A DNA stretch of 64,000 bases from NCBI GenBank assembly GCA_903901045.1, contig CAIUPP010000061.1:38374-102373 (forward strand). Reading direction: 5' to 3'. Below, one piece after another: positions 6,528 through 35,935 of the stretch (its first letter is position 1; the number at the start of each line of letters is the position of its first letter). The position numbers and the translations under genes are program-made. Below the pieces are notes generated by a model that did not search any database, had not been told where the DNA came from, and saw only the letters and a list, made by a program, of their open reading frames with translations. The stretch comes from an uncultured Planctomycetota bacterium. GTDB taxonomy: Bacteria; Planctomycetota; Brocadiia; CAIUPP01.

Positions 6528-6540
6528 GGCTGTGAACGGA

Positions 6541-6680
6541 TTCAACTTTCAACATCCGACGTCCAACGTCCAACATTCAACGAACAACAAAAGAACGCCG
6601 CGCGCGGAACGTTGTTGTTTGTTGCCGTTACTTGAACGTTGAAAGTTGAACGTTGGATGTTGGACGTTGAATCCGTTGTC
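6541..6680. repeat. near-perfect ~65-bp-arm hairpin built from tandem heptamers (TTCAACG-type), 11-nt GC loop
   Basis: TTCAACTTTCAACATCCGACGTCCAACGTCCAACATTCAACGAACAACAA mirrors its reverse complement after the GCCGCGCGCGG loop. Confidence 0.75.
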
Positions 6681-11790: not shown

Positions 11791-11792
11791 AG

Positions 11793-12310
11793 AATTGATA
11801 AGTGATGAGTGATGAATGTTGATTGATAATTGGTCATTGTTCGGCCTATTCCTGGCAAGACGTGACTGTGCGCACGGGGGCCCGATAGTTCGCCGTCTTC
11901 GAAGAGGCAACGCAGATCGCCGTCAACTCACCGACTTCCCGCAAGAGGCCCTCCATGCGTTTGGCCGGAATCATTTCAGCCGCCGCAATCAGGCGCAGCC
12001 AGTACTGGGCCTCGCGCAATTCTTTGACGACGATCTGCAGCTTGTGCGCAAAATCTCTCTTGCTCTCCGCGCCGCACGCTTCGCTGTAATTTGCCCCCGC
12101 AGAAGTGGCCGCGCGGAAAAGCTGAAGACTTACGTGCTGCGCCAGCGATGTTTTCGGCAGGGCCGAGGCAAGTCCGTAGGTTCGCGCGCCGAATCGAAGG
12201 AACCTCTCGCACAACTCCCTGCTATTCATCATCCCCTCGCCAACATGATAATTGTCGTTCTCCTGCTCCAATTATCAATCATCACTTATCACTCATCCAT
12301 TATCAATTCT
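11793..12310. repeat. cassette A: four-helix-bundle gene bracketed by ~40-bp inverted repeats made of tandem heptamers (GTGATGA/TTGATAA units)
   Basis: Left arm AATTGATAAGTGATGAGTGATGAATGTTGATTGATAATTG (~11793-11836). The reverse complement of the right arm (~12270-12310) is GAATTGATAATGGATGAGTGATAAGTGATGATTGATAATTG. Confidence 0.8.
11846..12232 (-). CDS. four-helix-bundle protein, '23S rRNA intervening-sequence protein' family (TIGR02436/PF05635-like), copy A
   Basis: Family core ATSAGANYSEACGAESKRDFAHKLQIVVKELREAQYWLRL; paralogous to copies B-D. Confidence 0.8.
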   Translation of the reverse strand: MMNSRELCERFLRFGARTYGLASALPKTSLAQHVSLQLFRAATSAGANYSEACGAESKRDFAHKLQIVVKELREAQYWLRLIAAAEMIPAKRMEGLLREVGELTAICVASSKTANYRAPVRTVTSCQE

Positions 12311-12311
12311 C

Positions 12312-13241
12312 TTATCTCGTCATCAATTTAAGAACAATCGGCCCGAAGATCATGATGAAAATCGTGGGGAAAATGAACAGGATGAGGGGCAGAAGGATCT
12401 TGACCGGCGCTTCCATCGCGAGCTTCTCGGCAGTCTGGCTGCGGCGCGTGCGCATCTGGTCGGCCTGGATGCGCAGGATCGGGCCGAGGCTGGAGCCGAG
12501 CTCGTCGGCCTGGATCAGCGCACTGACCACGCTGTTGAGTTCGGAAGCGTCCACGCGGCGGCTCAGTTCGCGCAACGCCTGCGCGCGCGTGCGGCCCAGC
12601 TGGATGTCGCGCACCGTCTGCCCCAGTTCCACCCCGAGCGGCCCGGGGCCGAGTTTCTTCACGATGCGCGCGAGCGCCTGCGTGAAGTCCAGCCCGGCCT
12701 CGACCGAGAGGGTGAGCAGGTCCAGCGCGTAGGGGAGCCCGCGGCGGATTTCGTCGCGGCGCGCTTTCACCCGCGAACGCAGCCAGAGCAGCGGCATGTA
12801 CATGCCGCCGAGGGCGAAGATGAGAATGATCGCGTTGAAGTTCATCCGGAGGTTGAACAGCGCTCCCAGGAGCCCCCCGCAAATCCCCCCCAGCAGCACC
12901 ATCCCGAGGAACTCGTCGGCGCTGACCCCTTCCGGGTAGGAGGCGCTGCGCAGTTGTTTTTCGGCCCAGATGCGAGGGGCGAGCAGGAAGGACTTCTCCG
13001 CCGGCCGGCCCGTGGCCATTTCGACGCGCGCCGAGACCCTCGCCAGCACGAACGAGAGCGCCCGCGCGGGGGGCCGCAGCAGCTTGAACAGCGGCGAGGA
13101 GGCCGGCCGCCCCAGGCTGCGGTACTGCCGCGCCTCGGCGCGGGCCCCCATCAGGGTGCGCGCCAGCGTATACGCCAGGAGCGCCACGCTCGTCCCCGCG
13201 CACAGCGCCAGCAGCATCGTCTGCAGCGATCCGTCTTCCAT
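12312..13241 (-). CDS. tadC: Flp pilus assembly protein TadC (T2SS-F domain)
   Basis: ATG at 13241 (MEDGSLQTMLLALCAG...). GspF-like domain and TM helices. Confidence 0.85.
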   Translation of the reverse strand: MEDGSLQTMLLALCAGTSVALLAYTLARTLMGARAEARQYRSLGRPASSPLFKLLRPPARALSFVLARVSARVEMATGRPAEKSFLLAPRIWAEKQLRSASYPEGVSADEFLGMVLLGGICGGLLGALFNLRMNFNAIILIFALGGMYMPLLWLRSRVKARRDEIRRGLPYALDLLTLSVEAGLDFTQALARIVKKLGPGPLGVELGQTVRDIQLGRTRAQALRELSRRVDASELNSVVSALIQADELGSSLGPILRIQADQMRTRRSQTAEKLAMEAPVKILLPLILFIFPTIFIMIFGPIVLKLMTR

Positions 13242-13246
13242 TCCGC

Positions 13247-14119
13247 TCACACCTTGATCGAAACGATTCGCCAGATCATGAACACTCCGATCGCCTCCAT
13301 CACCACCACGCCCGCCATCATCAGCCAGCCGAGCCAGTGCGTGAACATGGGCCGCATGAGCTCCGGGCTCCAGGCGTTCAGCGCCAGGAAAATCAGCACC
13401 GGCAGCAGGCCGATGATCACCCCCTGCATTTTCCCCTGCGCGGTCAGCGAGGAGATCTTCCCCTGGATGCGGTGGCGGTCGCGGATGGTGTCGGCGATGT
13501 TGTCGAACACCTCGGCGAGGTTCCCGCCCACCTCGCGGCTGATGAGGATGGAGGTGATGAGAATGTCCAGGTCCTCGCCCGGCATGCGGTCGAGCAGGTG
13601 CTGGAGCGCGTCCTCCATCGTGACGCCCAGGCGCATCTCCTGCACCATCAGGCGCATCTCCTGCCCCATCGGGTTCTCCGTCTCGCGCGCAATCAGCTCG
13701 AACGCCGCCGGCAGGCTGTGGCCCGCGCGCAGACTGTTGCCCATCGCCACCAGCGCGTCCTCCAACTGCACGCCGAACTTCTTGTCCCGCCGCCACTTGA
13801 GGAAGCGCACGATGATGGTGGGGGTCGCGAACGCCGCGATCCCCACGAAAATCGCCAGCACGACGTTCAACGTCATGACGGCGAAAATAATGAACACGAC
13901 CAGCGTGGAAAGGAAAGAGAGGTAGAGGATCTGCTGGACTGTCATGGTCAGGTACATTGCGTCGAGGGTGCGCGTGGCGCCGGAGACGTACTTCTCCTCG
14001 TAGGTCTTGAACCCCTTGGAGAGGAACGCCATCAGCCCGTACATCAGCAGCACGACGGCGAAGAACGCCGCGCCGAGGGTCACCACCGTCCAGGCCTGAC
14101 TCAGTTGGCCGGGGTTCAT
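13247..14119 (-). CDS. tadB: Flp pilus assembly protein TadB (T2SS-F domain)
   Basis: 290 aa polytopic protein with GspF-like domain, adjacent to tadC and cpaF. Confidence 0.85.
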   Translation of the reverse strand: MNPGQLSQAWTVVTLGAAFFAVVLLMYGLMAFLSKGFKTYEEKYVSGATRTLDAMYLTMTVQQILYLSFLSTLVVFIIFAVMTLNVVLAIFVGIAAFATPTIIVRFLKWRRDKKFGVQLEDALVAMGNSLRAGHSLPAAFELIARETENPMGQEMRLMVQEMRLGVTMEDALQHLLDRMPGEDLDILITSILISREVGGNLAEVFDNIADTIRDRHRIQGKISSLTAQGKMQGVIIGLLPVLIFLALNAWSPELMRPMFTHWLGWLMMAGVVVMEAIGVFMIWRIVSIKV

Positions 14120-14120
14120 C

Positions 14121-15755
14121 TCATTCCTCCACCGGCTTGAACAGTGCCAGGTCCACCGGCACGCCGCGCTCGCGCAGCTCCTGCACGAACTTCGGGATTG
14201 CGCCGGTGGCCGTCATCACCCCCAGCACGCGGCCATGCTCGTCGTATCCCTTCTGTCGGAACTCGAAGATCGGCTGCATGATGACCGTGTCCTGCTCCAT
14301 GCCGGTGATCTCGGAGATGTTGGTGATCTTGCGCGTGCCGTCCGGCAGGCGCGCGCCGTGGACGATGAGGCTGATGGCGGCGGTGATCTGCTCGCGGATG
14401 GCGCGGCTGGGCAGATCGAGGCCGGCCATGAGCACGAGCGTTTCCAGGCGCGCCAGGACGTCGCGCGGGCTGTTCGCGTGGAGCGTGGTGAGCGAGCCAT
14501 CGTGGCCGGTGTTCATGGCCTGGAGCATGTCGAGCGCCTCGCCGCCGCGGCACTCGCCGACGACGATCCGGTCGGGCCGCATGCGCAGGGCGTTGATGAC
14601 GAGCTTTCGGATCGGCACCTCCCCCTTCCCCTCGATGCTGGGGGGCTTGCTTTCCAGGCTGATCACATGCTCCTGCGCGAGTTGCAGTTCGGCGGCATCC
14701 TCAATGGTGATGATGCGCTCGGTCGATGGAATGAAGCCGCTGAGGATGTTCAAGAGGGTGGTCTTGCCCGAGCCGGTGCCGCCGCTGATGACGGCGTTCT
14801 TGCGGTTGACCACGCCGATCTGAAGGAAATCGGCCATCGCCTGCGAGAGCGAGCCGAAGCGGATGAGGTCGGTGGTGGTGAACGGGGTGCGCGCGAATTT
14901 GCGGATGGTGAGCGTGGGGCCGGTGAGCGCCAGCGGCGGGATGATGGCGTTCACGCGCGAGCCGTCGGCCAGGCGCGCGTCCACCATGGGGCTGGACTCA
15001 TCCACGCGCCGCCCGATGGGCGCCAGGATGCGCCGGATGACCGCCAGAAGCTGCTCGTTGCTGGTGAAGCGCTTGTCGGTCAGCTCCAGCCGGCCATGCC
15101 GCTCGATGTAGATCTTGTCCCAGCCGTTGACCATCACTTCGTCCACGGAATCGTCGGCCAGGAAATCCTCCAGCGCGCCCAGCGCGATGGCCTCGTCCAC
15201 GACCTCCTTGACCAGCGCCTCCGAGGTGAGCCAGGAGGGGCGCTCCGAGGCGAACTTGGCGACGGCGGCGCGGGCGGCGACCGAGGTTTTGCCCCGCACT
15301 TCCTCCGTGGTCTTCTCCGTCAGGTCGGTGTGCTTGAGGTCGAGAGAGGCGAGGATTTCATCATGGATCTTCTTCTTCAGTTCGACCGGCGTGCGGCGGT
15401 CCGGGCCGAGGCGGGGATGTTTCGCGGAACTGGGCGGCTTGCCCACCGCTTCGGGGGCGGCCTCGCCGGCATGGAAGGTGAGCGTGAACGGCCCGATGCG
15501 AATGACGTTGCGCTCCCCCAGCGGCGCCTGCCCGATCACCTTGGCGCTGTTGAGGAAGGTGCCGTTGCGGCTGCCCAGGTCGTGCAGCACGTAGGCCTTG
15601 TCCTCGTAAGCGACGATGCAATGCTCGCGAGAGATGCTGGGGTGGTCGAGCACGAGGTGGTTGACGCCGGCCTTCTTGCCGATCTTGAAGGGCAGCGGGT
15701 CCAGCGGAACGCTGCGCGCGGAGCCGCTTTCGTCTCGCAGGATCAGTACCGCCAT
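14121..15755 (-). CDS. cpaF: CpaF/TadA secretion ATPase with N-terminal FHA domain fusion
   Basis: FHA N-terminus (IGKKAGVNHLVLDHPSISREHCIV...LHDLGSRNGTFLN), then Walker A (GGTGSGKTT) and VirB11/CpaF motifs. Confidence 0.9.
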   Translation of the reverse strand: MAVLILRDESGSARSVPLDPLPFKIGKKAGVNHLVLDHPSISREHCIVAYEDKAYVLHDLGSRNGTFLNSAKVIGQAPLGERNVIRIGPFTLTFHAGEAAPEAVGKPPSSAKHPRLGPDRRTPVELKKKIHDEILASLDLKHTDLTEKTTEEVRGKTSVAARAAVAKFASERPSWLTSEALVKEVVDEAIALGALEDFLADDSVDEVMVNGWDKIYIERHGRLELTDKRFTSNEQLLAVIRRILAPIGRRVDESSPMVDARLADGSRVNAIIPPLALTGPTLTIRKFARTPFTTTDLIRFGSLSQAMADFLQIGVVNRKNAVISGGTGSGKTTLLNILSGFIPSTERIITIEDAAELQLAQEHVISLESKPPSIEGKGEVPIRKLVINALRMRPDRIVVGECRGGEALDMLQAMNTGHDGSLTTLHANSPRDVLARLETLVLMAGLDLPSRAIREQITAAISLIVHGARLPDGTRKITNISEITGMEQDTVIMQPIFEFRQKGYDEHGRVLGVMTATGAIPKFVQELRERGVPVDLALFKPVEE

Positions 15756-15860
15756 ATCATCCTCTCCCGTTCAGGCCGGTCATGGGTCCGCCGCGCCGGG
15801 GCGCAGCGTTCTTAAGCGCGGAGGCAAGGCAGAGCCTGGCCCCGGCGACGGCATGCGCCG

Positions 15861-16727
15861 CTACGGTTGCGGAACAAACTCTTCCAGCGACCCCTGCTTC
15901 TTCAGGCGCTCGTCTCGGTCCTTGCGGGCGGTGGCGGCCAGGTCGAGCAGGTTCTTGTCGCTGACATCCTGAGCCTCCGGGACGTTGGTGTCGGCGACCG
16001 GGCTCCGCAGGGACATGGTCAGCGCGCCATCCTGCTGCGCGTAGACCAGAAGGTTCGCCTCCAGCGGGCTGACCGCCACGGTGATGGTGCTGTAGCTCTT
16101 GACGCGCGCGCCGTTGCTGATGACGTACTCCTCGTCATGCGTGCGGCTGTCCACGGCGAGGATGCGCACGTTGTCCAGCAGCAGCACGGTGTGGCTGGCG
16201 GTAGCGCCGGTCATCGGGGCGCCCGCGGCGGCCGGGGCGCGAGCCGCCGCCCCTTGCTGCGTGCTGGTCGGGAACGTGCCGATGACGTCCACCCGGCTCC
16301 CGGGAACCAGGTTGCCGGCGACGCCGGTGACGTTATCCACGCGCAGCGTGACCGCGCGCTCGCCGGCGTTGAGCTTCTGCTCGAGCTTCTCCACCGGCTG
16401 CCGGAAATAACTCCAGCGCAGCGGCTCGCCGCGCTCCACGGTCTTGTTGATGACCTGCCCGAGGAACCGCTGGTCGTCGGCCATGATGTCGTCCGCCGTG
16501 ACGGTCGACTCGGTGACGATCTTGCCGGGGAGGTTGTCCACGTCCTTGTAGAGCATCTTCGGCAGGACGGGGGTGCCCGCCGTGATACGCTCGCCGGCCG
16601 CCGCGATGCGCTGCGGCTTGAACTTGTTCTGGAAGTCGTTCTGCCGGTTCTGAAGCACCTTCTGGAACCCATAGACGGCGACGAGGCCCAGGACCACGGC
16701 CAGGATCAAGGCGAGCTTGTTCTTCAC
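15861..16727 (-). CDS. cpaB: Flp pilus assembly protein CpaB/RcpC (SAF domain)
   Basis: Likely GTG start at ~16727 preceded by GGAGG. TM anchor (MKNKLALILAVVLGLVAV) and CpaB-type domain. Confidence 0.8.
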   Translation of the reverse strand: MKNKLALILAVVLGLVAVYGFQKVLQNRQNDFQNKFKPQRIAAAGERITAGTPVLPKMLYKDVDNLPGKIVTESTVTADDIMADDQRFLGQVINKTVERGEPLRWSYFRQPVEKLEQKLNAGERAVTLRVDNVTGVAGNLVPGSRVDVIGTFPTSTQQGAAARAPAAAGAPMTGATASHTVLLLDNVRILAVDSRTHDEEYVISNGARVKSYSTITVAVSPLEANLLVYAQQDGALTMSLRSPVADTNVPEAQDVSDKNLLDLAATARKDRDERLKKQGSLEEFVPQP

Positions 16728-17233
16728 TGCATTTCCTCCTTGGGGCCCGCTGCGGCGGGACCCCGGTTGGGGACGGAGGCCTGGCGCATGAGGGTGACGG
16801 CTGAGCCGCCTCCTGCGCCCGCCTCGACGATGCTTATGATACACCAACTGCCGGTAGGGTCTGCAAATGTCAGGGGCATCCCGCCGGGCTCCTCCATCAT
16901 GCCCGGCAAGCGTTGCGTTGTCCAGCCCCGCGCGGGCATTTCATGCCTGTAGAACTCCGCGACCGCGTCGGCGGACTCGCGGCTGACGTAGCGAACCAAT
17001 ACGCGCCCCGAGCCCGGCGCGGAGTTCAGGATGCCGGCCAGTTGCGATTCCGGCGGCGCGGGGATGTTCTCCAGCGCCCGCCCCGCCCTGCCCGTTGCCC
17101 CGCGCTCCACAATTGCGGGCAATAATCCGTAATGGCCGATGGCGAAAGACAAGGCTACGATAAGCCCGGCGCCTGCAAGACGGAAAACGATTTCTGACTT
17201 CTGATTCCTGAATTCTGATTTCTGATTTGCCAT
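16724..17233 (-). CDS. hypothetical small membrane protein; N-terminus (MANQKSEFRNQKSEI) encoded by heptamer-repeat arm
   Basis: 169 aa with one TM helix. Overlaps cpaB start by 4 nt. The first 15 codons are the TTCTGAT tandem repeat. Confidence 0.4.
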   Translation of the reverse strand: MANQKSEFRNQKSEIVFRLAGAGLIVALSFAIGHYGLLPAIVERGATGRAGRALENIPAPPESQLAGILNSAPGSGRVLVRYVSRESADAVAEFYRHEMPARGWTTQRLPGMMEEPGGMPLTFADPTGSWCIISIVEAGAGGGSAVTLMRQASVPNRGPAAAGPKEEMQ

Positions 17234-17702
17234 GTTTCACATGCTACGTTGACAATTCGTCCTGTCTGAGTGAGTCCGCATTCTTCCGCGACTTGTACGT
17301 GGTGACCGCGGCGACGAAGATACGGATCAACTGGTCTGCCTCGTCGAGCATCCCGGTCAGACGCTTTGCGGGCAAGAGTCCGGCTTCGGCTATCAGCCGC
17401 AGCCAATACTCGCTCTCGCGCAATTCCTTCAAAGATATCTGCATCTTGTGAAGGAAATCCTGGCGGCTTTCCGCCCCTGACGCCTCACAGTAGTTTGCCC
17501 CGGCGGAGGTGGCGGCCCGCATGAGTTGAAGGCCGACATGCCGCCCCGTGGCCGACTTGGTCAGCGCATTTGCCACATGAATACTTCGGACTCCGAATTG
17601 CAGCAGCCTCCGGTTCAAGTCGTGCTTGTCCATGCTGTGCGCTCCCGATGAAACCTCACACTGCTCTCCGCCCGAGGCACAAATCAGAACTCAGAAATCG
17701 TT
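17186..17702. repeat. cassette B: four-helix-bundle gene bracketed by inverted heptamer-repeat arms (TTCTGAT units)
   Basis: Left arm CGATTTCTGACTTCTGATTCCTGAATTCTGATTTCTGATTTG. Right arm reverse complement is AACGATTTCTGAGTTCTGATTTGTG (shorter arm). Confidence 0.75.
17244..17633 (-). CDS. four-helix-bundle protein, 23S-IVS-protein family, copy B
   Basis: Family core ATSAGANYCEASGAESRQDFLHKMQISLKELRESEYWLRL. Confidence 0.8.
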   Translation of the reverse strand: MDKHDLNRRLLQFGVRSIHVANALTKSATGRHVGLQLMRAATSAGANYCEASGAESRQDFLHKMQISLKELRESEYWLRLIAEAGLLPAKRLTGMLDEADQLIRIFVAAVTTYKSRKNADSLRQDELST

Positions 17703-18721
17703 TACCACCGTTTCCAAAGATTCTGCGTCGCATCATTCACCGCGGGCAGCGCGACGGCGCCAAGCAGGTCGGCGGCCTCTCCCAGCACCGCGGCGGAGGT
17801 GTGCCCTTGCTCGCCGGCGGCCAGCCGCGTTCCATTCCCCGTGACGTGGCCGGTCAGGTCCATCGTGAACTCCCACTGCGGGCGGCTCGTGGGGTTGGGG
17901 TACGTGCCGGTGATGTAATTTCCCAGCGTGGTGGGCGCCTCGTCCGTTGCCCGGAAGACGGAGGGGAAGTAGGGGGGGCTGTACGTGGCGCGCAGGTCCG
18001 CGTGGCGACGTTCGAGCCAGTGCGTGCCGCCGACGCCGTCGAAGGCGGATGCGATCCAGGCGGTGGTGTTGTCGATGACCGGCGGAGTGGCCTCGTCGGC
18101 GGTTACGAACCCGCCGCCGAGCTCCACTCCACCAGCTAGAGGGTTCAAGTAATGTGCGGGGGAAAATTTGTCGCCATATTCCGTATTCGAGACTTCCGTG
18201 ATCCCCTTGACCGCGTCCCAGACGAAGCTCTGCGTGGTCACCCCCAGCGCGTAATTCCAGAGGCTGACGGCAAGCCGCTCGCGGTCGAACGTGTCCGGCT
18301 GGCCGCCCCCCATCAGGGGGCCGGTCGTCAATTGGGTGGGGATTTCCTGGCGGTAATAGTCGTCGAGCTGGCTTGAGAGCTCGGACGCCTCCAGCGTCAG
18401 GTCTCCCTGGGCGGCCGCCGTCTGGCCGCCGCTGACGGGGCGGACATTGTCCGGCGTCCCCCCGCCGGAGGGCCAGAGCTTCATCAGCAACAGGTCCGCC
18501 GGCTGAGCCGTGGGCATCCAGACGGCAAACGTCGCCGCCTTGACGGCGCGCTGCCGGGTCAGCGTCGCATAGCCGAAGTAAAGCACCCCCAGCACGATCA
18601 GCATGTACAGCGGCATGACCAGCGCGGTTTCGACCATCGCCGTTCCGCGGAGCGAACGACAACGGCGAGCGTAGAGTGTAGAGTGCAGAGTGATGAGTGT
18701 AGAGCTATTCATTTTTCTCAT
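17702..18721 (-). CDS. tadE: TadE/TadG-like pseudopilin with long repeat-encoded leader
   Basis: Contains RGTAMVETALVMPLYMLIVLGVL (class-III signal / TadE-like N-terminus). Leader residues STLITLHSTLY are encoded by the GTAGAGT repeat arm. Confidence 0.7.
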   Translation of the reverse strand: MRKMNSSTLITLHSTLYARRCRSLRGTAMVETALVMPLYMLIVLGVLYFGYATLTRQRAVKAATFAVWMPTAQPADLLLMKLWPSGGGTPDNVRPVSGGQTAAAQGDLTLEASELSSQLDDYYRQEIPTQLTTGPLMGGGQPDTFDRERLAVSLWNYALGVTTQSFVWDAVKGITEVSNTEYGDKFSPAHYLNPLAGGVELGGGFVTADEATPPVIDNTTAWIASAFDGVGGTHWLERRHADLRATYSPPYFPSVFRATDEAPTTLGNYITGTYPNPTSRPQWEFTMDLTGHVTGNGTRLAAGEQGHTSAAVLGEAADLLGAVALPAVNDATQNLWKRW

Positions 18722-19167
18722 GGGCCATGTTCCTCTTCACAGTTACGACAGATCGGACCGCCATGGCGGTTAACTCACTGCATTCCCGCAAGGCGCCGTC
18801 GAGTTGTGCCGGCGGCAACAAACGGCTCTCCCTGGCAAGAGTCAGCCAGTAGTCCGTTTCGCGCAGTTCTTTGATGACAACCTGCAGCTTATGCACGAAA
18901 TCCGCACGGCTCTCAGCGCCCTTTGCCTCCCTGTAATTTGCCCCAGCCGACGTGCCCGACCGTAGCACCTGCTTGGCAATCACTCTGCCAGCCATGGTCT
19001 TGGGCATAGCCTGCGTAAGGCGAATCACCTCGATAGCGTAGGCCAGCAGGCGCTTGTCCAGCATGCCCTCACGTTCTGCCATCGCCATAACTCCCCGCTC
19101 AGGTCCTTGTCCTCGTCCTTGTTCACTCTGCATTCATCGCTCTGCACTCTACACTCTACGCTCGCCG
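18665..19167. repeat. cassette C: four-helix-bundle gene bracketed by inverted heptamer-repeat arms (GTAGAGT units)
   Basis: Left arm GGCGAGCGTAGAGTGTAGAGTGCAGAGTGATGAGTGTAGAGC. Right arm reverse complement is GGCGAGCGTAGAGTGTAGAGTGCAGAGCGATGAATGCAGAGTGA. Confidence 0.8.
18705..19088 (-). CDS. four-helix-bundle protein, 23S-IVS-protein family, copy C
   Basis: Family core RSGTSAGANYREAKGAESRADFVHKLQVVIKELRETDYWLTL. The 3' end overlaps the tadE-like start by 17 nt. Confidence 0.8.
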   Translation of the reverse strand: MAMAEREGMLDKRLLAYAIEVIRLTQAMPKTMAGRVIAKQVLRSGTSAGANYREAKGAESRADFVHKLQVVIKELRETDYWLTLARESRLLPPAQLDGALRECSELTAMAVRSVVTVKRNMAHEKNE

Positions 19168-21738
19168 TTAATGTTCCACCACATCGCTCATCTGCCTATT
19201 CCCATAGTCGAGAACCGGCGTGATCGGCTTGCCGTACTCGTCGCGGCGCTGGCTCATCTGGCGCATCTTGAGGGCGATGCTGGGGTCTCCCTGCCCGTTG
19301 AATTGGGTGGCCCAGCCGCTTGAATCGTAGCCGGAGGCGAACTGCGCGCTGAGCACCGTATCCCACAGGTAGGAGAGGGCGTTTTCGGTTTCGAGCGTGA
19401 TCGCCTGCCCCTGAATGATCTCGTCATCCAGGTCGTAATCCTGCATCTGATCGCGCGAGGGATAGAGCTTTGCCGTCGCGCCCGCCATGTACAGATTGTT
19501 CGGGTCCTGCTCGACCCAGTTTGCTCGATCCGCCTTGCCGCCGAACTGGTACCGCGTTCCGCCGCCGTCGTCCGGAACGCCCACGCGCGAGCAGGAGATG
19601 GCGACGTACCCCCAGGGCGGCTGTAGCGCCTGCGGGAAGAGCATGGGGAGGTCGGGTTGCTTGTAGACTCCGACATTGACGCCATACTTGAAGAACTCAT
19701 CCGTCAGCACCAAGGGGTATCCGGCCGGTGCCGCGGGGGCGTTGCGGAGAATGTAGGAATCGTACCGGTGAACGCGGCTGTCCAGAAAGTCGGTGTCCGT
19801 CCATCCACGCTGACCGTCGGTGATGGACAGATCATAGGAGCGCGGGTCCGGCGGGTTGATGCGACCGGAGGGGATATCCGCGATGAAGACCCGGATATCC
19901 GTGGCCCCGTCGCGGTTGTTATCGTAACCGCCGCAGACTTTACATACTTCCTTGTGCGTCCCCTGGTTGGGATCATTGGGATCGTTGGGGACATCCACAA
20001 CGCCGCTCCCGCCGCAGCCCAAGGGAGGCTCCGGGCAGGGCTCCGTCTGGTAGTAGGCGTCCTCCGGAGGGTCCTCATTGGGCTGGAGGATCGCCAGGCT
20101 GCCGGGCGGACGCAGCGGATAGGTGTGCCGCCAGAACGGCTCGCGGGGACCCGCCGTGCCCGTATTGTCCGGGATCGGATTGAACCAGGCCGTCCACGCC
20201 GGCAGTTGGTTCCCGGAGATGCCGCGGTCGCCGAAGGCATGGGTGTAGACGTACCGATTCATATTCCTTTCGCGGGACAGCATCGCCCCGGAGGTCTCGT
20301 GATCGTATTGCCATTGCTTGAGTCCACCGTGCTCCGGGACCACTTCGGTAAGCTGCTGGCGCGACCAGACCTGCTCGGTCGGGTCGAACCACTTGCGCCA
20401 GCGGCCGTCCGCGTCACCGGCGGTGAGGCTGAACCCGCCCGCCGTGACGCTGAAGGAGTTCGGGTCGAAGCCGTGGACGCCGATCGTGACCGGGCCCAGA
20501 GTGGTCGAGATGGTCGGGGGGTCGCTCAAGGTCAAATGGGCGTGGCCGATGGTGACCTGGGTGGGGTCCCCGATGGTCGCGCTGGCGTCGCCGGGGAAGT
20601 GGATAACGTTGGTGACGTTCATCCGCACTTCCACCCCGGCGATCGTGGTCGTGTTGCTGGTCATGTCGGTGTAGGAGTGCGCGGCGTTGTCCCAGAGGTA
20701 CAGGTGGCCGTTGCCCGCGTTCTTGAAAGTCTGGGAAAGGTTGCCGCAGGTGACTTTCGTCCCCTCCTTGGTCCCGTCGCCGTCCATGTCCACTTTCTCG
20801 AAGGAGATAGTCGGCAGGGAGGGGCCGCCGTTCGCGGCCTGTCCCCAGACCACCCAGCCGAGGTCGTCGGTCTTGACCAGGTAAATCTCCTCGGTCAGCG
20901 CCCCGTTGGTGTAGAAGCTGATCTTCCAGCGGTTGGGGGATTCCTGGCTGATGATCACCTCGGTTTCGGTGACCCCTTCCAGGGAGTACAGGATGTGCCA
21001 CTGCCCGTCCACCAGCGTCACCTGGATCATCTCCTTGCTGCCGCCGGTGAGGTTGGTGACGCGCCAGCCGTTGCCCAGTTGCTCGATGCTGAAAGAGATG
21101 AGACTCTCCGGGTAAGGGAAGAGCCGCTGGCTGGGGAAGACGCTGAGGCGCTCTCCGCCGGCGCGCGTGCCGATGGCGAACATCTCCTCGGCGAGCAGGC
21201 GCGGGGTGAGGATGGCGACGGCGTTCTCCGTCTGCGAGAGCTGCACCATCAGGCTCTTGGCCTGCGGCAGGGCGGTGTTGGCGAGGTCCCATGCCTGCCG
21301 GTGCGCCATGACGGCCGGGCCGGAGGCAACGCCGCCGGTGCGGATCAGTTCCATGCGCGCGGCGACGCCGGTGACGTTCACATCCACGGCATACTTCAGC
21401 GAGTTGTAGTACGTCTGCGCCATGGCGCTGTTGATCCAGCCGATGGCGCTCAGGCTGTTCGCTTCCACCATCGCGCCGGAGTACGCCGCCGAGTCCGCCG
21501 CCACCTGCACCCGCGTGCGCCCCTCGATGATCCGCCCCAGGTTGTACACCAGCGCCACGAACCCCACCAGCACGATCAGGCTCGCCGCGGCGAAGATAAT
21601 CCCCTGGCCGCGCTCGTCGCGCAGGAAACGGCGAAAACTGAGAACTGAGAACTGGGAACTGAAAGTTGCGAAAGAACGGCCCCTCCGCGCCATAGCGCGG
21701 TGGACCGGAATCGGCTCGTTATTCTTGCATGCACTCAT
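19168..21738 (-). CDS. tadG: large TadG-like pilus-assembly/pseudopilin protein (856 aa)
   Basis: N-terminal RRFLRDERGQGIIFAAASLIVLVGFVALVYNLG (TadG N-terminal domain type). The leader contains repeat-encoded FSSQFSVLSF. Confidence 0.65.
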   Translation of the reverse strand: MSACKNNEPIPVHRAMARRGRSFATFSSQFSVLSFRRFLRDERGQGIIFAAASLIVLVGFVALVYNLGRIIEGRTRVQVAADSAAYSGAMVEANSLSAIGWINSAMAQTYYNSLKYAVDVNVTGVAARMELIRTGGVASGPAVMAHRQAWDLANTALPQAKSLMVQLSQTENAVAILTPRLLAEEMFAIGTRAGGERLSVFPSQRLFPYPESLISFSIEQLGNGWRVTNLTGGSKEMIQVTLVDGQWHILYSLEGVTETEVIISQESPNRWKISFYTNGALTEEIYLVKTDDLGWVVWGQAANGGPSLPTISFEKVDMDGDGTKEGTKVTCGNLSQTFKNAGNGHLYLWDNAAHSYTDMTSNTTTIAGVEVRMNVTNVIHFPGDASATIGDPTQVTIGHAHLTLSDPPTISTTLGPVTIGVHGFDPNSFSVTAGGFSLTAGDADGRWRKWFDPTEQVWSRQQLTEVVPEHGGLKQWQYDHETSGAMLSRERNMNRYVYTHAFGDRGISGNQLPAWTAWFNPIPDNTGTAGPREPFWRHTYPLRPPGSLAILQPNEDPPEDAYYQTEPCPEPPLGCGGSGVVDVPNDPNDPNQGTHKEVCKVCGGYDNNRDGATDIRVFIADIPSGRINPPDPRSYDLSITDGQRGWTDTDFLDSRVHRYDSYILRNAPAAPAGYPLVLTDEFFKYGVNVGVYKQPDLPMLFPQALQPPWGYVAISCSRVGVPDDGGGTRYQFGGKADRANWVEQDPNNLYMAGATAKLYPSRDQMQDYDLDDEIIQGQAITLETENALSYLWDTVLSAQFASGYDSSGWATQFNGQGDPSIALKMRQMSQRRDEYGKPITPVLDYGNRQMSDVVEH

Positions 21739-21815
21739 GGTATTGTTACCTCAATCTCAACATCGCGCCATCTTTCAGTTCTCAGTCTTCAGTCTTCAGT
21801 CTTCAATTCTCGCCG
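21630..21815. repeat. 'empty' heptamer inverted-repeat pair (GAGAACT units) whose ~105-bp loop holds only the tadE-stop/tadG-start junction
   Basis: Left arm GGCGAAAACTGAGAACTGAGAACTGGGAACTGAAAG. Right arm reverse complement is GGCGAGAATTGAAGACTGAAGACTGAAGACTGAGAACTGAAA. Confidence 0.7.
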
Positions 21816-21822
21816 TCCTTCA

Positions 21823-22407
21823 TCACTCGCCCCACGGATGCGCCAGCACGCAACTGCCGGTCATCAGCCAGTGCGCCGCGCCTCCCCACTTCGAGCGGTC
21901 CACGTCGAGGCCGGGGGTCAGGTCGCCCAGCGCGTAGAGGGCGTCGCCGGCGATTGGCACATTCAATTCGTAGTCATGCGATACGTCGGCGTGGATCACC
22001 GGCTGGCCGTTGACCGAATCGGGGTAGACGTTGACGTCGGTCTTCAGTTCCGCCGCGGCGCTGCCGGGGAGCGTCCCCCAGCCGGGCAGGGTGATGGTGT
22101 CGTTGGCGACGACGCCGGAAGTTCCCGTGATGCGGCTCAGCGGGATCAGCGCCGCGCGCTTGCAGGCGGTCGGGTCGATCGCCGGCGACTGCGCCAGCCC
22201 CGCGCGCGCCGCGCAAAAAGCGCTGTACTCGATCACCTGCTGCGCGATGAACAGATGGGCCAGTTGAATGATGACCAGCGTGATCAGCAGTTGGAGCGGG
22301 AAGATGATGGCGTATTCAACCAGCGCCTGCCCCGACTCCGCGCGGGCGGCGCGGCGAGAACTGAAAACTGAGAACTGAAAACTGAGAACTGAGAGTTGGC
22401 GGTTCAT
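21823..22407 (-). CDS. tadE: TadE-like pseudopilin
   Basis: RRAARAESGQALVEYAIIFPLQLLITLVIIQ is a TadE N-terminus. Leader MNRQLSVLSFQFSVFSS is encoded by the repeat arm. Confidence 0.75.
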   Translation of the reverse strand: MNRQLSVLSFQFSVFSSRRAARAESGQALVEYAIIFPLQLLITLVIIQLAHLFIAQQVIEYSAFCAARAGLAQSPAIDPTACKRAALIPLSRITGTSGVVANDTITLPGWGTLPGSAAAELKTDVNVYPDSVNGQPVIHADVSHDYELNVPIAGDALYALGDLTPGLDVDRSKWGGAAHWLMTGSCVLAHPWGE

Positions 22408-22824
22408 CGCGCAGCTCCTTTGTTCGACTTCGCCGTCACCACGGACTTCACGCCTATGGAGATCAGTTCATTCACCTCACTGGCAATGCCGTCCAGGCGA
22501 GCCGGCTTCAACAAATGGGCGTTGCGGCAAAGCTCAATCCAATAGAGCGTCTCGCGCAGTTCTTTCACTACAATCTGCATCTTGTGCGCAAAGTCGGCGC
22601 GACTCTCGGCGCATCTCGCCTCGCAGTAGTTGGCGCCAGGCGACGTGCCGGATCGCAGCAATTGCAGTCCCACATGCCGCCCCGCCGCCGTCTTGGGCAG
22701 CGCGTTCGTCATCGCGATGACCCTCACGGCCAGTTCTTGCAGGCGCTCACCATAATTGCCGCTCTGCGCCACGTTTTATCCTCTCAGTTCTCAGTCTTCA
22801 GTTCTCAGTTTTCAGTTCTCGCCG
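22353..22824. repeat. cassette D: four-helix-bundle gene bracketed by inverted heptamer-repeat arms (GAGAACT units)
   Basis: Left arm GGCGAGAACTGAAAACTGAGAACTGAAAACTGAGAACTGAGAG. Right arm reverse complement is GGCGAGAACTGAAAACTGAGAACTGAAGACTGAGAACTGA. Confidence 0.8.
22404..22772 (-). CDS. four-helix-bundle protein, 23S-IVS-protein family, copy D
   Basis: Family core RSGTSPGANYCEARCAESRADFAHKMQIVVKELRETLYWIEL. GTG start. Confidence 0.8.
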   Translation of the reverse strand: MAQSGNYGERLQELAVRVIAMTNALPKTAAGRHVGLQLLRSGTSPGANYCEARCAESRADFAHKMQIVVKELRETLYWIELCRNAHLLKPARLDGIASEVNELISIGVKSVVTAKSNKGAAR

Positions 22825-23374: not shown

Positions 23375-23406
23375 AGATCAACCCACCTCAATGTTCCTGC
23401 GATAAT

Positions 23407-23456
23407 GTGGCGCGGGTTATCCAACCCGCGGTCATCGTGCGTTCATTCCGCTTTCG
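23407..23456. repeat. family-4 element copy a (GCGGGTTATCCAACCCGC hairpin + CATCGTGCGTTCATTCCG tail)
   Basis: GTGGCGCGGGTTATCCAACCCGCGGTCATCGTGCGTTCATTCCGCTTTCG. Confidence 0.7.
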
Positions 23457-23603
23457 TCTCTCGCGGGCCTGCGGCCCGCGCCATATCGGCTTCAAGACCG
23501 GAAGCCCCGCGCGCTCCACTTCAAACGAATAACTCCGACCGCTGCGGGCGCAGAGGCCGGAGTTATCCATGCGACAACGCCCGATCGGGCAGCGGACGCG
23601 CCG

Positions 23604-24327: not shown

Positions 24328-24437
24328 TGCGCCAGCACCCCCACGATGGCGCGCGCTTTCCCGCAAAAGCGCGGCGCCCTTCGCTGCCCCGATACAGCGA
24401 GCGGCCAGTCCGCGTCCCGCGCCGCAGGCGCGGGGAA

Positions 24438-24545
24438 AAGAAAGCGGAAAGAACGCACGCTGATTGCGGGTTTGATAACCCGCGCTACATCGGCCTCACG
24501 AACCGGAAGAACTGCACGGTAATCGCGGGTTGGATAACCCTCGCC
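24438..24545. repeat. family-4 element copies c and d (reverse orientation), tandem, upstream of flp genes
   Basis: Reverse complement of 24438-24490 is GTAGCGCGGGTTATCAAACCCGCAATCAGCGTGCGTTCTTTCCGCTTTC. 24500-24545 is a more diverged copy. Confidence 0.7.
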
Positions 24546-24558
24546 ACACCGCCTGCTT

Positions 24559-25113: not shown

Positions 25114-25274
25114 ACTTCTCCTCTTCCCTGCTGCGCCGATCTATTCACCGCGGAGGCGCGGAGAACGAACGACGCCGTCTTTCATCTCTCAGTTCTCAGT
25201 CTTCAGTTCTCAGTTCTCGCCGTCCTGCGCATCTCCGGGGTGAAAAGGGCAAACGCCCGTCTCGGAGAGAACGT

Positions 25275-25324
25275 GTAGCGCGGGTTATCAAACCCGCGAT
25301 CATTGTGCGTTCTTTCCGATTTCC
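25275..25324. repeat. family-4 element copy b, in the 268-bp spacer between fumarate hydratase alpha and beta genes
   Basis: GTAGCGCGGGTTATCAAACCCGCGATCATTGTGCGTTCTTTCCGATTTCC, preceded at 25185-25225 by a solo CTCAGTT heptamer-repeat arm. Confidence 0.7.
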
Positions 25325-35775: not shown

Positions 35776-35935
35776 CCGTGGGCTAGAGTCCGACGGCCGC
35801 TTCGCGGCCTAACAAGCAGAATGGGATGGTTTCTCCGGAGCATGCGGATTACGCGGTGCGCCCTGCGCACCTGTGAATTACGATTAGCAGGTTGGCCGAC
35901 CCCTCCAATGCAGCTCGTACCGCGGCGTCGTTCAC

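What the first reader, a model, noticed from the sequence alone, without database searches (positions are those of the whole stretch)
11793..22824. The flanking inverted repeats are tandem heptamers whose unit sequence differs at every locus but is matched within each pair
The arm unit is GTGATGA/TTGATAA in cassette A, TTCTGAT in B, GTAGAGT in C and GAGAACT in D. Each arm has 3-6 units of exact 7-nt periodicity.

Within a cassette the two arms are near-perfect reverse complements. In cassette C, for example, both arms read GGCGAGCGTAGAGTGTAGAGTGCAGAG. Between cassettes the arms are unrelated in sequence.

Paralogous loci therefore preserve pairing but not sequence, which argues that the arms function as a long RNA or DNA stem. 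Such a stem is a plausible RNase III substrate or cruciform, rather than a transposase-recognised terminal inverted repeat. The strict 7-nt periodicity is unexplained. One possibility is a slippage-type origin. Another is that a stop-free heptamer can be read in every frame where arms overlap coding sequence.
Basis: seen in the sequence. Interest (0 to 1): 0.8.

Follow-up and report, generated by a model that had tools for sequence, protein, structure and literature searches.

The report
Heptamer-armed four-helix-bundle gene cassettes
Four small genes wedged between the genes of a pilus operon are each bracketed by matching inverted runs of a 7-base repeat; they are the same kind of element that interrupts 23S rRNA genes in Coxiella and Leptospira, and 51 of 72 surveyed relatives of the gene, from many phyla, carry the same repeat arms.

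Summary
Period-7 arrays are the only enriched tandem period in the window: 12 arrays against 0-1 at other periods and 0 in shuffles. Cognate arms are 88-98% complementary, and non-cognate arms are unrelated.

[quoted passage not shown] All four sit co-directionally at gene junctions of a Tad pilus operon.

The design is general. In 72 related loci from many phyla, 51 have inverted period-7 arms, against 1 of 277 decoy positions. Cultured Nostoc, Planktothrix and Treponema show it too.

The arms co-vary: 9 of 43 pairs carry changes on both sides, and 0 of 500 shuffles reach that. They are predicted to close a long RNA stem (z -2.6 to -11).

The Coxiella 23S IVS has the same ORF, tandem heptamers and a stem cut by RNase III. 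An RNA stem that is an RNase III substrate is therefore the best reading, but it is inferred, not shown. There is no G·U excess, and units follow a widespread consensus (TGCAAAW), so protein recognition or DNA-level roles remain open.

"Unit differs at every locus" holds only locally. The 7-nt period stays unexplained.

Verdict: a new variant of a known kind.

The parts
12268..12310 (-). Cassette A, 5' arm on the operon (minus) strand. Units TTGATAA/GTGATGA. It begins 1 nt after the TadC stop codon.
   Evidence: (I11)
11846..12229 (-). Cassette A gene: four-helix-bundle protein (PF05635 / TIGR02436).
   Evidence: purifying selection versus the L083 orthologue (aa identity 0.85, third-position identity 0.64)
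11791..11833 (-). Cassette A, 3' arm. It is stop-free in all frames and ends at the ATG of the DUF192 gene.
17676..17710 (-). Cassette B, 5' arm (about 2.5 units of TTCTGAG/TTCTGAT). It overlaps the stop codon of the upstream TadE gene.
   Evidence: (I25)
17244..17633 (-). Cassette B gene: four-helix-bundle protein.
17182..17229 (-). Cassette B, 3' arm (about 6 units of AATCAGA). It is translated as the N-terminus MANQKSEFRNQKSEI of the AF_1845-like gene.
19126..19176 (-). Cassette C, 5' arm (GTAGAGT/GCAGAGT with the clamp ACGGCGAG). It contains the TadG stop codon.
   Evidence: (I5)
18705..19082 (-). Cassette C gene: four-helix-bundle protein.
   Evidence: aa identity 0.93 to the L083 orthologue
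18654..18704 (-). Cassette C, 3' arm. It lies inside the N-terminal (leader) coding region of the 339-aa TadE-like gene, and is open in frame in both the window and L083.
22781..22824 (-). Cassette D, 5' arm (GAGAACT/GAAAACT). It starts 1 nt after the prepilin-peptidase stop codon.
   Evidence: (I6)
22404..22772 (-). Cassette D gene: four-helix-bundle protein. Its TGA overlaps the ATG of the next gene (ATGA).
22352..22395 (-). Cassette D, 3' arm. It is translated as part of MNRQLSVLSFQFSVFSS at the N-terminus of the 194-aa TadE gene.
21623..21815 (-). ORF-less hairpin of the D unit family (arms 21766-21815 and 21623-21671, roughly 100-nt loop). The loop holds the TadG start codon and the 3' arm lies inside TadG.
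   Evidence: (I15)
25182..25222 (-). Solo or decayed array of the D unit family, upstream of the fumarase beta-subunit gene.
6535..6677 (-). ORF-less heptamer hairpin (unit TTCAACG, 56-nt arms, 31-nt loop) between the Usp and UvrC-like genes.
   Evidence: (I4)
35933..36846 (-). Heptamer arms (TTCGCAA/ATTGCGA) at 35933-35976 and 36803-36846. They bracket an ordinary SpoU-family methyltransferase gene (35988-36757), not a four-helix-bundle gene. Pairing is weaker than in A-D: 30 nt at 80% complementary, score 13.
   Evidence: (I24)

Best explanation
Cassettes A-D are four copies of an 'intervening-sequence-type' element. Each is a small gene for a four-helix-bundle protein (PF05635/TIGR02436, the family first found inside 23S rRNA intervening sequences), bracketed by 22-51-nt inverted arms built from tandem heptamers.

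They sit in the same orientation as the host genes and fill the junctions of a Tad/Flp pilus operon: peptidase|TadE, TadG|TadE, TadE|AF_1845 and TadC|DUF192. They appear to rely on read-through transcription.

In the operon transcript the two arms pair into a long, nearly perfect helix that closes off the small cistron. By analogy with the rRNA copies, that helix is most likely cut by RNase III or otherwise governs processing and translation at the junction.

The arms belong to the known but unexplained class of over-represented intergenic heptanucleotide repeats. Units expand and turn over, probably by slippage. Complementarity between the two arms is actively maintained, either by selection for the stem or by templated correction.

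The elements spread within genomes as unit families, both as full cassettes and as ORF-less hairpins.

Shown here: the gene family, the architecture, its generality, the co-variation of the arms, purifying selection on the protein, gain and loss at operon junctions, and translation of the 3' arms. Inferred: co-transcription, stem formation in vivo, and RNase III cleavage.
For: Gene family and context:
- All four ORFs hit PF05635 at E 4e-14 to 2e-18 and TIGR02436 at 4e-24 to 1e-21. The solved relative is PDB 2RLD.
- The operon context comes from called genes on the source contig.

Period 7 and pairing:
- Period 7 is specifically enriched. The window has 12 arrays, against 0-1 at other periods apart from period 14 (4 arrays), which is twice seven.
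- Across 528 kb of window plus fetched loci there are 199 period-7 arrays, against 0-23 at periods 5, 6 and 8-11.
- 137 of those 199 arrays have an inverted partner within 2.5 kb, against 63 with a direct partner.

Survey of relatives:
- Of 72 evaluable relatives of the gene in one-genome-per-species contigs, 55 have flank inverted repeats scoring 14 or more, and 51 of these have period 7 as the best period in both arms.
- Only 2 of 277 decoy positions reach that score, and only 1 of the 2 has period 7.
- Cultured strains with annotated 'four helix bundle protein' genes show the same arms.

Pairing is maintained:
- Cognate arms outscore non-cognate arms.
- In the A family, 9 of 43 pairs changed on both sides, 0 of 500 shuffles reach this, and slid controls give 0-2.
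- RNA folds put the arms in the closing stem, with z -5.7, -2.6, -5.6 and -11.0 for A-D and -5.7 and -9.5 for the two hairpins.

Orientation and spacing:
- All 11 cassettes in five orthologous tad loci are co-oriented with the operon.
- In the survey, 32 of 48 cassettes have both neighbours co-oriented, and the median gap from the upstream stop codon to the 5' arm is about 12 nt.

Evolution:
- The cassettes are functional and old. 4HB amino-acid identity between the window and L083 is 0.85-0.93, while third-codon-position identity matches the host genes.
- Occupied junctions differ among orthologous operons, and an A-type cassette was duplicated with its arms to another junction.

Experimental precedent:
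- The Coxiella 23S IVS carries the same ORF family, a 28-bp terminal stem cut by RNase III, and 2-3 tandem GACAGAT heptamers at the cleavage site (PMC4990558).
Against: - There is no strand-specific RNA signature. G·U-type mismatches number 41 against 31 A·C-type (p=0.29), and most mismatches are transversions.
- Units are not free to vary. 49 of 60 5' arms contain TG and fit TGCAAAW, which suggests sequence recognition beyond pairing.
- In B, C, D and the hairpin, the downstream gene's only in-frame start codon lies upstream of the 3' arm. RNase III cleavage in the stem would therefore decapitate that mRNA.
- Some pairs bracket ordinary genes: the SpoU-family gene here and atpC in L040.
- Solo arrays exist, for example L087 junction 2.
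- No transcript or cleavage data exist for this organism.
Confidence: 0.6

Rival explanations
1. The heptamers are iterated protein-binding sites, one protein unit per 7 nt, and the inverted arrangement serves that protein rather than a nucleic-acid stem. The binder could be the cassette's own four-helix-bundle oligomer or a host factor such as a cold-shock or S1-type protein. The complex would regulate translation or processing of the neighbouring cistrons.
For: - A widely shared unit consensus, T-G-[C/A]-A-A-A-[A/T], in 49 of 60 arms from many phyla, despite about 45% protein identity.
- Array length is constrained, with a mode of 4-6 units and a median of 41 nt.
- There is consistent strand asymmetry: the purine- and A-rich arm lies upstream.
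- Solo arrays sit just upstream of start codons.
- The literature proposes Csp or S1 binding for TAACTGA repeats and reports one B. subtilis CspB per heptamer (PMC4679880).
- An unidentified binder is postulated in Nostoc.
- From own knowledge, heptad operators bound by one dimer each are known for the omega repressor of pSM19035.
Against: - Four unrelated units coexist in one operon, so a single binder cannot read them all.
- Arms match in register down to variant units and co-vary. A set of independent binding sites does not need that.
- 137 of 199 arrays have an inverted partner.
Confidence: 0.17
2. The arms are DNA-level terminal inverted repeats of a mobile element. The element would be mobilised by an enzyme encoded elsewhere, or by the 4HB protein acting with one. 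Complementarity would simply reflect two ends that must carry the same recognition sequence, or that are regenerated by fold-back or template-switch synthesis at each move.
For: - Unit families occur at several sites in one genome: GAGAACT at three sites here, TGCGGAK at three sites in L083.
- An A-type cassette was duplicated with its arms to another junction.
- Presence and absence vary among orthologous junctions.
- ORF-less, MITE-like derivatives exist.
- The C and D families share the terminal clamp ACGGCGAG.
- There is no G·U excess.
Against: - No transposase, recombinase or reverse transcriptase lies within the roughly 21.6-kb source-contig stretch that holds the four cassettes.
- No target-site duplication is visible at D, the hairpin or the solo copy (reading).
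- Cassettes A and C show synonymous divergence like their host genes, so they are old and vertically inherited.
- The strong bias towards co-orientation with host transcription is not expected for a DNA transposon.
- Arms of very unequal length are seen (B here; L033 and L057).
Confidence: 0.15
3. The arrays are contingency loci. Gain or loss of one 7-nt unit in a 3' arm that lies inside a coding region shifts the reading frame and switches the downstream pilus gene on or off.
For: - The 3' arms lie between the start codon and the conserved part of the TadE, TadG and AF_1845 genes.
- Seven is not a multiple of three.
- Heptamer copy number differs among Coxiella strains.
- Arm lengths differ between orthologues.
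Against: - Three independent assemblies of this organism are 99.995% identical, with no change in any array, and L083 and L084 agree with each other.
- Most arrays in the survey are non-coding.
- This reading does not explain the inverted partner or the enclosed gene.
Confidence: 0.05

Closest known systems
23S rRNA intervening sequences that carry an 'S23p' ORF (Coxiella burnetii, Leptospira; PMC4990558)
   Same: The ORF family is the same (PF05635). The size is similar: about 430-540 nt here against 428 nt. Both have terminal inverted repeats that close a stem around the ORF. Both have tandem purine-rich heptamers on the 5' side (GACAGAT x2-3 in Coxiella). Both are co-transcribed with the host RNA.
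   Different: The location differs: junctions of a protein-coding operon, not helix 45 or 25 of 23S rRNA. Here both arms consist almost entirely of heptamers (4-6 units). The 3' arms are translated as part of neighbouring genes. The ORF here is under purifying selection, whereas the Coxiella ORF is decaying. RNase III cleavage is shown there and only inferred here.
Over-represented intergenic heptanucleotide repeats: GGGAATC in Xanthomonas (70-75 inverted pairs; PMC4692102), TAACTGA in Beggiatoaceae, cyanobacteria and Bacteroidetes (PMC4679880), TTTTGAA/TTCAAAA in Nostoc (bioRxiv 10.1101/2022.06.06.494920), and cyanobacterial STRR (own knowledge)
   Same: All are tandem 7-nt units of typically 4-6 copies, intergenic between co-oriented genes, close to start or stop codons, transcribed and often in inverted pairs. 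Unit D (AACTGAG/AACTGAA) is one base from TAACTGA. The arms of the Nostoc flagelliforme cassette are TTCAAAA/TTTTGAA.
   Different: Those papers treat the repeats as G-quadruplex formers or translational signals. In the passages and term searches I made of them, none mentions a four-helix-bundle/IVS gene between the arms. Here the arms are unit-diverse within one operon, and pairing was tested and found to co-vary.
Hairpin-forming miniature inverted-repeat elements processed by RNase III when co-transcribed (Neisseria Correia elements; own knowledge)
   Same: The ORF-less hairpins at 21623-21815 and 6535-6677 are short inverted-repeat elements. They sit between co-transcribed genes and are predicted to form long perfect RNA helices.
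   Different: Correia elements have fixed-sequence ends and a TA target duplication. Here the arms are tandem heptamers of variable unit and no duplication is seen. A protein-coding version also exists.
Avd, the accessory protein of diversity-generating retroelements
   Same: It has a homologous four-helix-bundle fold. L057's protein hits both PF05635 and PF22296 bAvd, and the homology is stated in PMC10053308.
   Different: No reverse transcriptase gene lies nearby, and template and variable repeats were not specifically looked for. The window proteins match PF05635 only. Avd genes are not known to carry heptamer arms.
Heptad operator arrays bound by the omega repressor of plasmid pSM19035 (own knowledge)
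   Same: Both are runs of contiguous 7-bp units in direct or inverted orientation, read one unit per protein dimer.
   Different: Those are promoter operators with one fixed unit (WATCACW). No such protein or promoter role is shown here.

Membership tests
PF05635 / TIGR02436 four-helix-bundle ('23S rRNA IVS') protein family | Score above the curated cut-off of the family profile. | tested here: met
   Pfam bits are 53-67 against a cut-off of 33.8. TIGR02436 bits are 77-85 against a cut-off of 24. PDB 2RLD matches at E=4e-24.
23S rRNA intervening sequence (IVS) element | Inserted in a 23S rRNA gene (helix 25 or 45). | tested here: not met
   The flanking genes are Tad pilus genes. Rfam finds no rRNA in the window.
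23S rRNA intervening sequence (IVS) element | Terminal inverted repeats forming a stem that encloses the ORF. | tested here: met
23S rRNA intervening sequence (IVS) element | Excision from the transcript by RNase III without re-ligation. | not testable with these tools
   Needs transcript-end mapping or an in vitro cleavage assay. It has been shown for Coxiella.
23S rRNA intervening sequence (IVS) element | Tandem heptamers at the 5' end (described for Coxiella only). | tested here: met
Intergenic heptanucleotide long simple-sequence repeats (Xanthomonas / Nostoc / Beggiatoa type) | At least 2-4 contiguous 7-nt units, intergenic, with period 7 over-represented relative to other periods. | tested here: met
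   literature
Diversity-generating retroelement (Avd component) | An adjacent reverse transcriptase gene, plus template and variable repeats. | tested here: not met
   No RT among the called genes of the source-contig stretch that covers window positions 4120-25755, which includes all four cassettes. Template and variable repeats were not specifically searched for.
Insertion sequence / MITE with transposase-recognised ends | A transposase gene in the element (IS), or target-site duplication plus fixed terminal sequence shared by all copies (MITE). | tested here: not met
   The only ORF is the 4HB gene. Arms differ between copies. No direct repeat flanks D, the hairpin or the solo copy. A transposase acting in trans cannot be excluded.
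Phase-variable simple-sequence repeat (contingency locus) | Unit number varies among closely related genomes. | tested here: inconclusive
   There is no variation among three near-identical assemblies, but they may sample one population.
Integron gene cassette (attC) | A single imperfect palindromic site downstream of the ORF, with an integrase and attI nearby. | tested here: not met
   The arms lie on both sides of the ORF, and no integrase is present.

The most novel reading that the evidence does not exclude
The tandem heptamers are the cognate nucleic-acid ligand of the enclosed four-helix-bundle protein. A pentameric ring (the oligomeric state reported for the family) would read about five 7-nt units, matching the typical 35-42-nt array.

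Cassette and protein would then form a self-recognising RNP. Because the protein is a homologue of the reverse-transcriptase cofactor Avd, the RNase III-excised stem-loop RNA could be copied by a reverse transcriptase acting in trans and re-inserted at gene junctions. That would make IVS-type cassettes and their hairpin derivatives a widespread, unrecognised class of retro-mobile elements. It would also explain the long-noted excess of heptanucleotide repeats in bacteria.
Probability: 0.08. Interest if true: 0.9.

Novelty: new variant of a known kind. Interest (0 to 1): 0.62.

Why it matters
Three things have been described separately and left unexplained:
1. The ORF-bearing intervening sequences of 23S rRNA.
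2. The large, function-unknown TIGR02436 'four helix bundle protein' family.
3. The excess of heptanucleotide repeats in many bacterial genomes.

The evidence here suggests they are facets of one element type: a small gene, or just a loop, closed by inverted heptamer arrays and riding inside host transcripts.

If that holds, it gives a concrete, testable handle on all three. The tests are RNase III mapping and protein-repeat binding in tractable carriers such as Nostoc or Xanthomonas.

It also matters for annotation. The arms create artificial-looking 7-residue periodic N-terminal extensions on neighbouring proteins, and they split operons at the RNA level.

Tried and rejected
1. Stop-codon insulator idea. 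The idea was that the 5' arm carries a stop in every unit, and so in all three frames, while the 3' arm is stop-free. It holds for A-D (19 stops against 0). It does not generalise: the commonest units, TGCAAAW, have no stop in either arm, and the counts fit composition once periodicity is allowed for.

2. G·U versus A·C asymmetry as proof of RNA-level selection. Not significant.

3. Own promoter or terminator in the cassettes. Only cassette A's 5' arm gives sigma-70-like matches, and no terminator-like site lies in any cassette.

4. A known RNA family. Rfam reports only a tRNA in the window.

5. Phage carriage. No relative in 2.9 million viral contigs.

6. Copy-number variation among assemblies. 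None.

7. Target-site duplications at D, the hairpin and the solo copy. None seen by eye.

8. HEPN-like RxxxxH motif. ES-R-ADFA-H occurs in three of the four proteins, but the arginine is a lysine in A. From memory, the histidine is not conserved across the family. Dropped.

9. Literature. Eight full-text searches found no paper linking heptamer arms to PF05635/TIGR02436 beyond the Coxiella IVS note. This is absence from the held library, not proof of novelty.

10. Naming the organism. The cluster look-up gave no names. A relative of the TadG gene at 39% identity is labelled Candidatus Brocadiia.

Full report

Yes. Tandem Repeats Finder reports period-7, indel-free arrays at every position named. 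The inverted-repeat search pairs them as follows:
- A: 11791-11833 with 12268-12310, 43 nt, 88% complementary.
- B: 17182-17206 with 17682-17706, 25 nt, 92%.
- C: 18654-18704 with 19126-19176, 51 nt, 88%.
- D: 22352-22395 with 22781-22824, 44 nt, 98%.

A sliding self-match scan of the whole window finds 12 period-7 arrays. It finds none at periods 4-6, 8 and 10-13, one at period 9, four at period 14 (twice seven), and none in dinucleotide shuffles. In an all-against-all matrix the cognate arms score 28, 19, 35 and 41, while arms of different cassettes score 9 or less.

Three corrections apply. B's upstream arm is short, about 2.5 units. D's unit is shared with an ORF-less hairpin (21623-21671/21766-21815) and a decayed copy (25182-25222). 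Further heptamer pairs lie outside the stated range, at 6535-6590/6622-6677 and 35933-35976/36803-36846.

**2. What lies between the arms, and where are the cassettes?**

Each cassette holds one minus-strand ORF of 122-142 aa (122-129 aa as called on the source contig). Each matches Pfam PF05635 '23S rRNA-intervening sequence protein' at E 4e-14 to 2e-18, and NCBIfam TIGR02436 'four helix bundle protein' at E 4e-24 to 1e-21. The solved relative is PDB 2RLD.

The window comes from an uncultured bacterium; identical contigs exist in ENA and JGI metagenomes. Called genes on that contig show a single minus-strand Tad/Flp pilus operon:

Flp - prepilin peptidase - [D] - TadE - [hairpin] - TadG - [C] - TadE - [B] - AF_1845 - RcpC - CpaF - TadB - TadC - [A] - DUF192 - FHA proteins.

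The cassettes are co-oriented with the operon and fill the junctions exactly. The 5' arm begins 0-2 nt after the upstream stop codon, or overlaps it. The 3' arm ends at the next gene's start or inside that gene.

**3. The 3' arms are translated.**

In B, C, D and the hairpin, the only in-frame start codon of the downstream gene lies upstream of the 3' arm. The arm is therefore read as an N-terminal extension, for example MNRQLSVLSFQFSVFSS-RRAARAESGQALVEY.

For the TadE gene downstream of C, the window and a relative (L083) both keep an open frame from an ATG before the arm. The three nucleotide differences in the stretch RRCRSLRGTA just after the arm are all synonymous.

Many TadG homologues from related metagenomes carry 7-residue periodic N-termini of different sequence: SALRTLR, IRNPQSA, HSPFTT and FSSQFSV. 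On the operon strand the four 3' arms have no stop in any frame, whereas the 5' arms have 19.

This asymmetry does not generalise. Elsewhere the commonest units have no stop in either orientation.

**4. The architecture is general for this gene family.**

A scan of one genome per species with the four proteins gave 547 confirmed relatives, of which 80 loci were fetched. For 72 evaluable genes I took the best ungapped inverted match between the 260-nt flanks:
- 55 score 14 or more, and in 51 of these period 7 is the best period in both arms.
- At 277 decoy positions in the same loci only 2 reach that score, and only 1 of them has period 7.

The carriers include Planctomycetota, Verrucomicrobiota, Acidobacteriota, Armatimonadota, WOR-3, Bacteroidota, Chloroflexota, Nitrospirota, Desulfobacterota and an archaeal MAG.

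Over 528 kb of window plus loci there are 199 period-7 arrays, against 5, 23, 12, 5, 2 and 0 at periods 5, 6, 8, 9, 10 and 11. Of the 199, 137 have an inverted partner within 2.5 kb and 63 have a direct one. The cognate 3' flank is the single best partner of a 5' flank in 29 of 75 loci.

Annotated 'four helix bundle protein' genes on plasmids of cultured strains show the same arms:
- Nostoc punctiforme: GTCGGAG
- N. flagelliforme: TTCAAAA
- Planktothrix agardhii: AATCCCC/AATCGTA
- Treponema saccharophilum: GGAAAGT
- Candidatus Chlorohelix: GATTTTA

In the survey 32 of 48 cassettes have both neighbours co-oriented. The median distance from the upstream stop codon to the 5' arm is about 12 nt.

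**5. The unit is not arbitrary.**

Across 60 5' arms, 49 contain TG and fit T-G-[C/A]-A-A-A-[A/T]. TGCAAAA and TGCAAAT are the commonest. On the coding strand the upstream arm is A- and purine-rich and the downstream arm is T-rich.

Arrays are typically 4-6 units long, with a median of 41 nt and a tail up to 18 units.

The window's units (TGAGAAC, TGTAGAG, TGATGAG, TTCTGAT) are GC-richer outliers. So 'a different unit at every locus' describes this operon, not the class. Within a genome, units recur as families: GAGAACT three times here and TGCGGAK three times in L083.

**6. Evolution in orthologous operons.**

TadG homologues led to four orthologous tad operons: L083 (71% amino-acid identity), L085 (47%), L087 (47%) and L086 (39%). 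Number the junctions along the operon as J1 peptidase|TadE, J2 TadE|TadG, J3 TadG|TadE, J4 TadE|AF_1845, J6 CpaF|TadB, J7 TadB|TadC and J8 TadC|DUF192. Cassettes occupy different junctions in each operon:

| Locus | Cassettes at | Other heptamer features |
|---|---|---|
| Window | J1, J3, J4, J8 | hairpin at J2 |
| L083 | J3, J4, J8 | hairpins at J1, J2, J7 |
| L085 | J3, J6 | hairpins at J1, J2 |
| L086 | J1 | hairpins at J3, J4 |
| L087 | J4 | solo 5' array at J2 |

J8 is empty, with 14-30-nt spacers, in L085, L086 and L087.

At J4 the window's cassette B and L086's ORF-less hairpin share the unit TTCTGAT. L083 and L087 instead carry an A-type protein with TTGATGA arms.

Between the window and L083, cassettes A and C have third-codon-position identity of 0.64 and 0.83. 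Host genes show 0.64-0.78, so the cassettes were inherited with the operon. Their proteins are more conserved than TadG or TadE (0.85 and 0.93 against 0.68-0.73), which means purifying selection on a functional protein.

L083's J4 cassette is an A-family paralogue (amino-acid identity 0.81-0.86). Cassettes therefore do duplicate to new junctions together with their arms.

**7. Pairing is maintained.**

I aligned four A-family copies in register and scored the 43-pair stem:
- 90% of cells are paired.
- 9 pairs carry changes on both sides, against 3.0±1.4 in shuffles (0 of 500 reach 9) and 0-2 when the partner is slid by 1-3 columns.
- Variant units are mirrored in register in both arms of C and D.

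RNA folding of each cassette transcript places the arms in one closing helix. The z-scores against shuffles are A -5.7, B -2.6, C -5.6, D -11.0, hairpin -5.7 and 6530-6682 -9.5.

However, arm mismatches show no excess of G·U over A·C on the sense strand (41 vs 31, p=0.29). Most are transversions. Complementarity is maintained, but the data do not say whether by selection on an RNA stem or by DNA-level copying of one arm from the other.

**8. Mechanism.**

The closest experimentally studied relative is the 23S rRNA intervening sequence of Coxiella burnetii. It is 428 nt long and carries the same ORF family ('S23p') and a 28-bp terminal stem cleaved by RNase III in vitro. It also has two or three tandem GACAGAT heptamers, with the 5' cut at the start of the first one (PMC4990558).

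On that basis the best-supported reading is as follows. The cassettes are IVS-type elements living in an mRNA instead of an rRNA. Their arms pair in the operon transcript. The helix is an RNase III substrate or otherwise shapes processing and translation at the junction.

Steps shown here: gene family, architecture, generality, co-variation, co-orientation, purifying selection and junction turnover. Steps inferred: co-transcription, helix formation in vivo and cleavage.

One difficulty is that cleavage inside the stem would remove the start codon from the downstream TadE and TadG messages. Cleavage would then have to be partial, regulatory, or outrun by coupled translation. In D the stop and start overlap as ATGA, and they are within 8-17 nt in B and C.

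A cruciform is unlikely for arms about 430 nt apart (established knowledge).

The 7-nt period itself remains unexplained. Published proposals are polymerase slippage favoured at 7 nt (Mrazek 2007, as cited in PMC4679880 and PMC4692102) and one OB-fold protein per heptamer (PMC4679880).

**9. Rivals.**

- **Iterated protein-binding sites.** This fits the shared consensus, the length mode and the solo arrays. It does not explain four unrelated units in one operon, or the in-register co-variation.
- **DNA-level mobile-element ends.** This fits the unit families, the duplication to new junctions, the hairpin derivatives, the shared ACGGCGAG clamp of C and D, and the absence of wobble. Against it: no transposase or reverse transcriptase nearby, no target duplication, old vertical inheritance and the co-orientation bias.
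- **Phase variation by unit slippage in coding arms.** This is possible in principle, but three assemblies show no length change.

**10. What is known, and what seems new.**

Heptanucleotide repeats are a recognised, unexplained excess in bacterial genomes. Xanthomonas has about 185 GGGAATC arrays, 70-75 of them as inverted pairs between co-oriented genes. They are transcribed and were read as G-quadruplex formers (PMC4692102). Beggiatoaceae, cyanobacteria and Bacteroidetes have TAACTGA arrays just upstream of start codons (PMC4679880); unit D is one base away. Nostoc 7120 has TTTTGAA/TTCAAAA arrays with reported regulatory effects.

In the passages I read, none of these papers mentions the enclosed four-helix-bundle gene. 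The IVS literature notes heptamers only for Coxiella. Eight full-text searches found no paper making the link. The library is incomplete, so this is not proof.

I therefore rate the finding a new variant of a known kind: an IVS-type cassette in mRNA context whose tandem-heptamer arms are a family-wide feature.

**11. Unexplained observations.**

- Some heptamer pairs bracket ordinary genes. Examples are a SpoU-family methyltransferase here (35933-36846, a weak pair with score 13) and atpC in L040 with 70-nt arms. A single insertion cannot produce that.
- L083 has two tandem copies of C's 5' arm.
- The two arms of a pair can differ greatly in length (B here; L033 and L057).
- In a contig without DNA on file, PF13366 (PDDEXK_3) genes sit at a junction where L086 has a TTCTGAT hairpin. 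This hints at a second cargo family, which I could not test.

Noticed in passing
window 24407-24489 / 25274-25356, with related copies at 23405-23460, 24435-24490 and 24501-24549: This is a different repeat family: arms of 48-83 nt, 78-93% complementary, containing the palindrome GCGGGTT-N-AACCCGC. The copies are scattered in intergenic spacers around the fumarase and Flp genes. It is not heptameric and looks like a REP- or MITE-type element.
   Followed up: no
window 26303-26335 / 26345-26377: An intergenic hairpin whose arms are tandem 9-mers (AAGGACnnn), 33 nt long, 88% complementary, with a 9-nt loop. It is the only non-7 periodic inverted pair seen in the window.
   Followed up: no
window 35933-36846: Heptamer arms (TTCGCAA) bracket a normal GC-rich SpoU-family RNA methyltransferase gene instead of a four-helix-bundle gene. 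The pairing is weak (30 nt, 80% complementary).
   Followed up: partly
L040 3077-3621: In a Thermoguttaceae MAG the ATP synthase epsilon gene (atpC) is bracketed by roughly 70-nt inverted heptamer arms (AAATCTC/AAAATCC, score 50). A four-helix-bundle cassette with different arms sits upstream of atpD in the same operon.
   Followed up: partly
proteins P0001-P0039 (TadG homologues), N-termini: Most homologues start with 7-residue periodic peptides, for example SALRTLRSAL, IRNPQSAIRNPQS and HSPFTT. These are translated heptamer arrays placed just before the conserved RDExGQG motif. Annotation pipelines extend ORFs through the arms.
   Followed up: partly
L089 (Planktothrix agardhii plasmid p1) and L092 (Ca. 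Chlorohelix plasmid): Heptamer-armed four-helix-bundle genes sit inside defence-gene strings, co-oriented with them: between DISARM drmD and BREX pglX, and between a DUF1156 gene and a Swt1-family HEPN gene.
   Followed up: no
contig of P0015 (no DNA held), compared with L086 4332-4447: Two PF13366 (PDDEXK_3) genes of 127 aa are inserted between genes of a DHODB-GltD-FGGY operon. The orthologous junction in L086 has a TTCTGAT heptamer hairpin. This may be a second cargo family for the same kind of arms.
   Followed up: no
L083 12440-12545: The 5' arm of the orthologue of cassette C is present as two tandem copies, each with the ACGGCGA clamp plus GTAGAGT-type units.
   Followed up: no
window 50464-50662: A GC-rich tandem repeat with period 9/18/27/36 (GCGCCGGTC consensus, about 15 copies). 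It probably encodes a repetitive protein segment and is unrelated to the heptamer arms.
   Followed up: no
window 12251-12326 (minus strand): Cassette A's AT-rich 5' arm gives three overlapping sigma-70-like matches (TTGATA-N16/17-GATAAT). No other cassette does, so an internal promoter for A cannot be excluded.
   Followed up: partly
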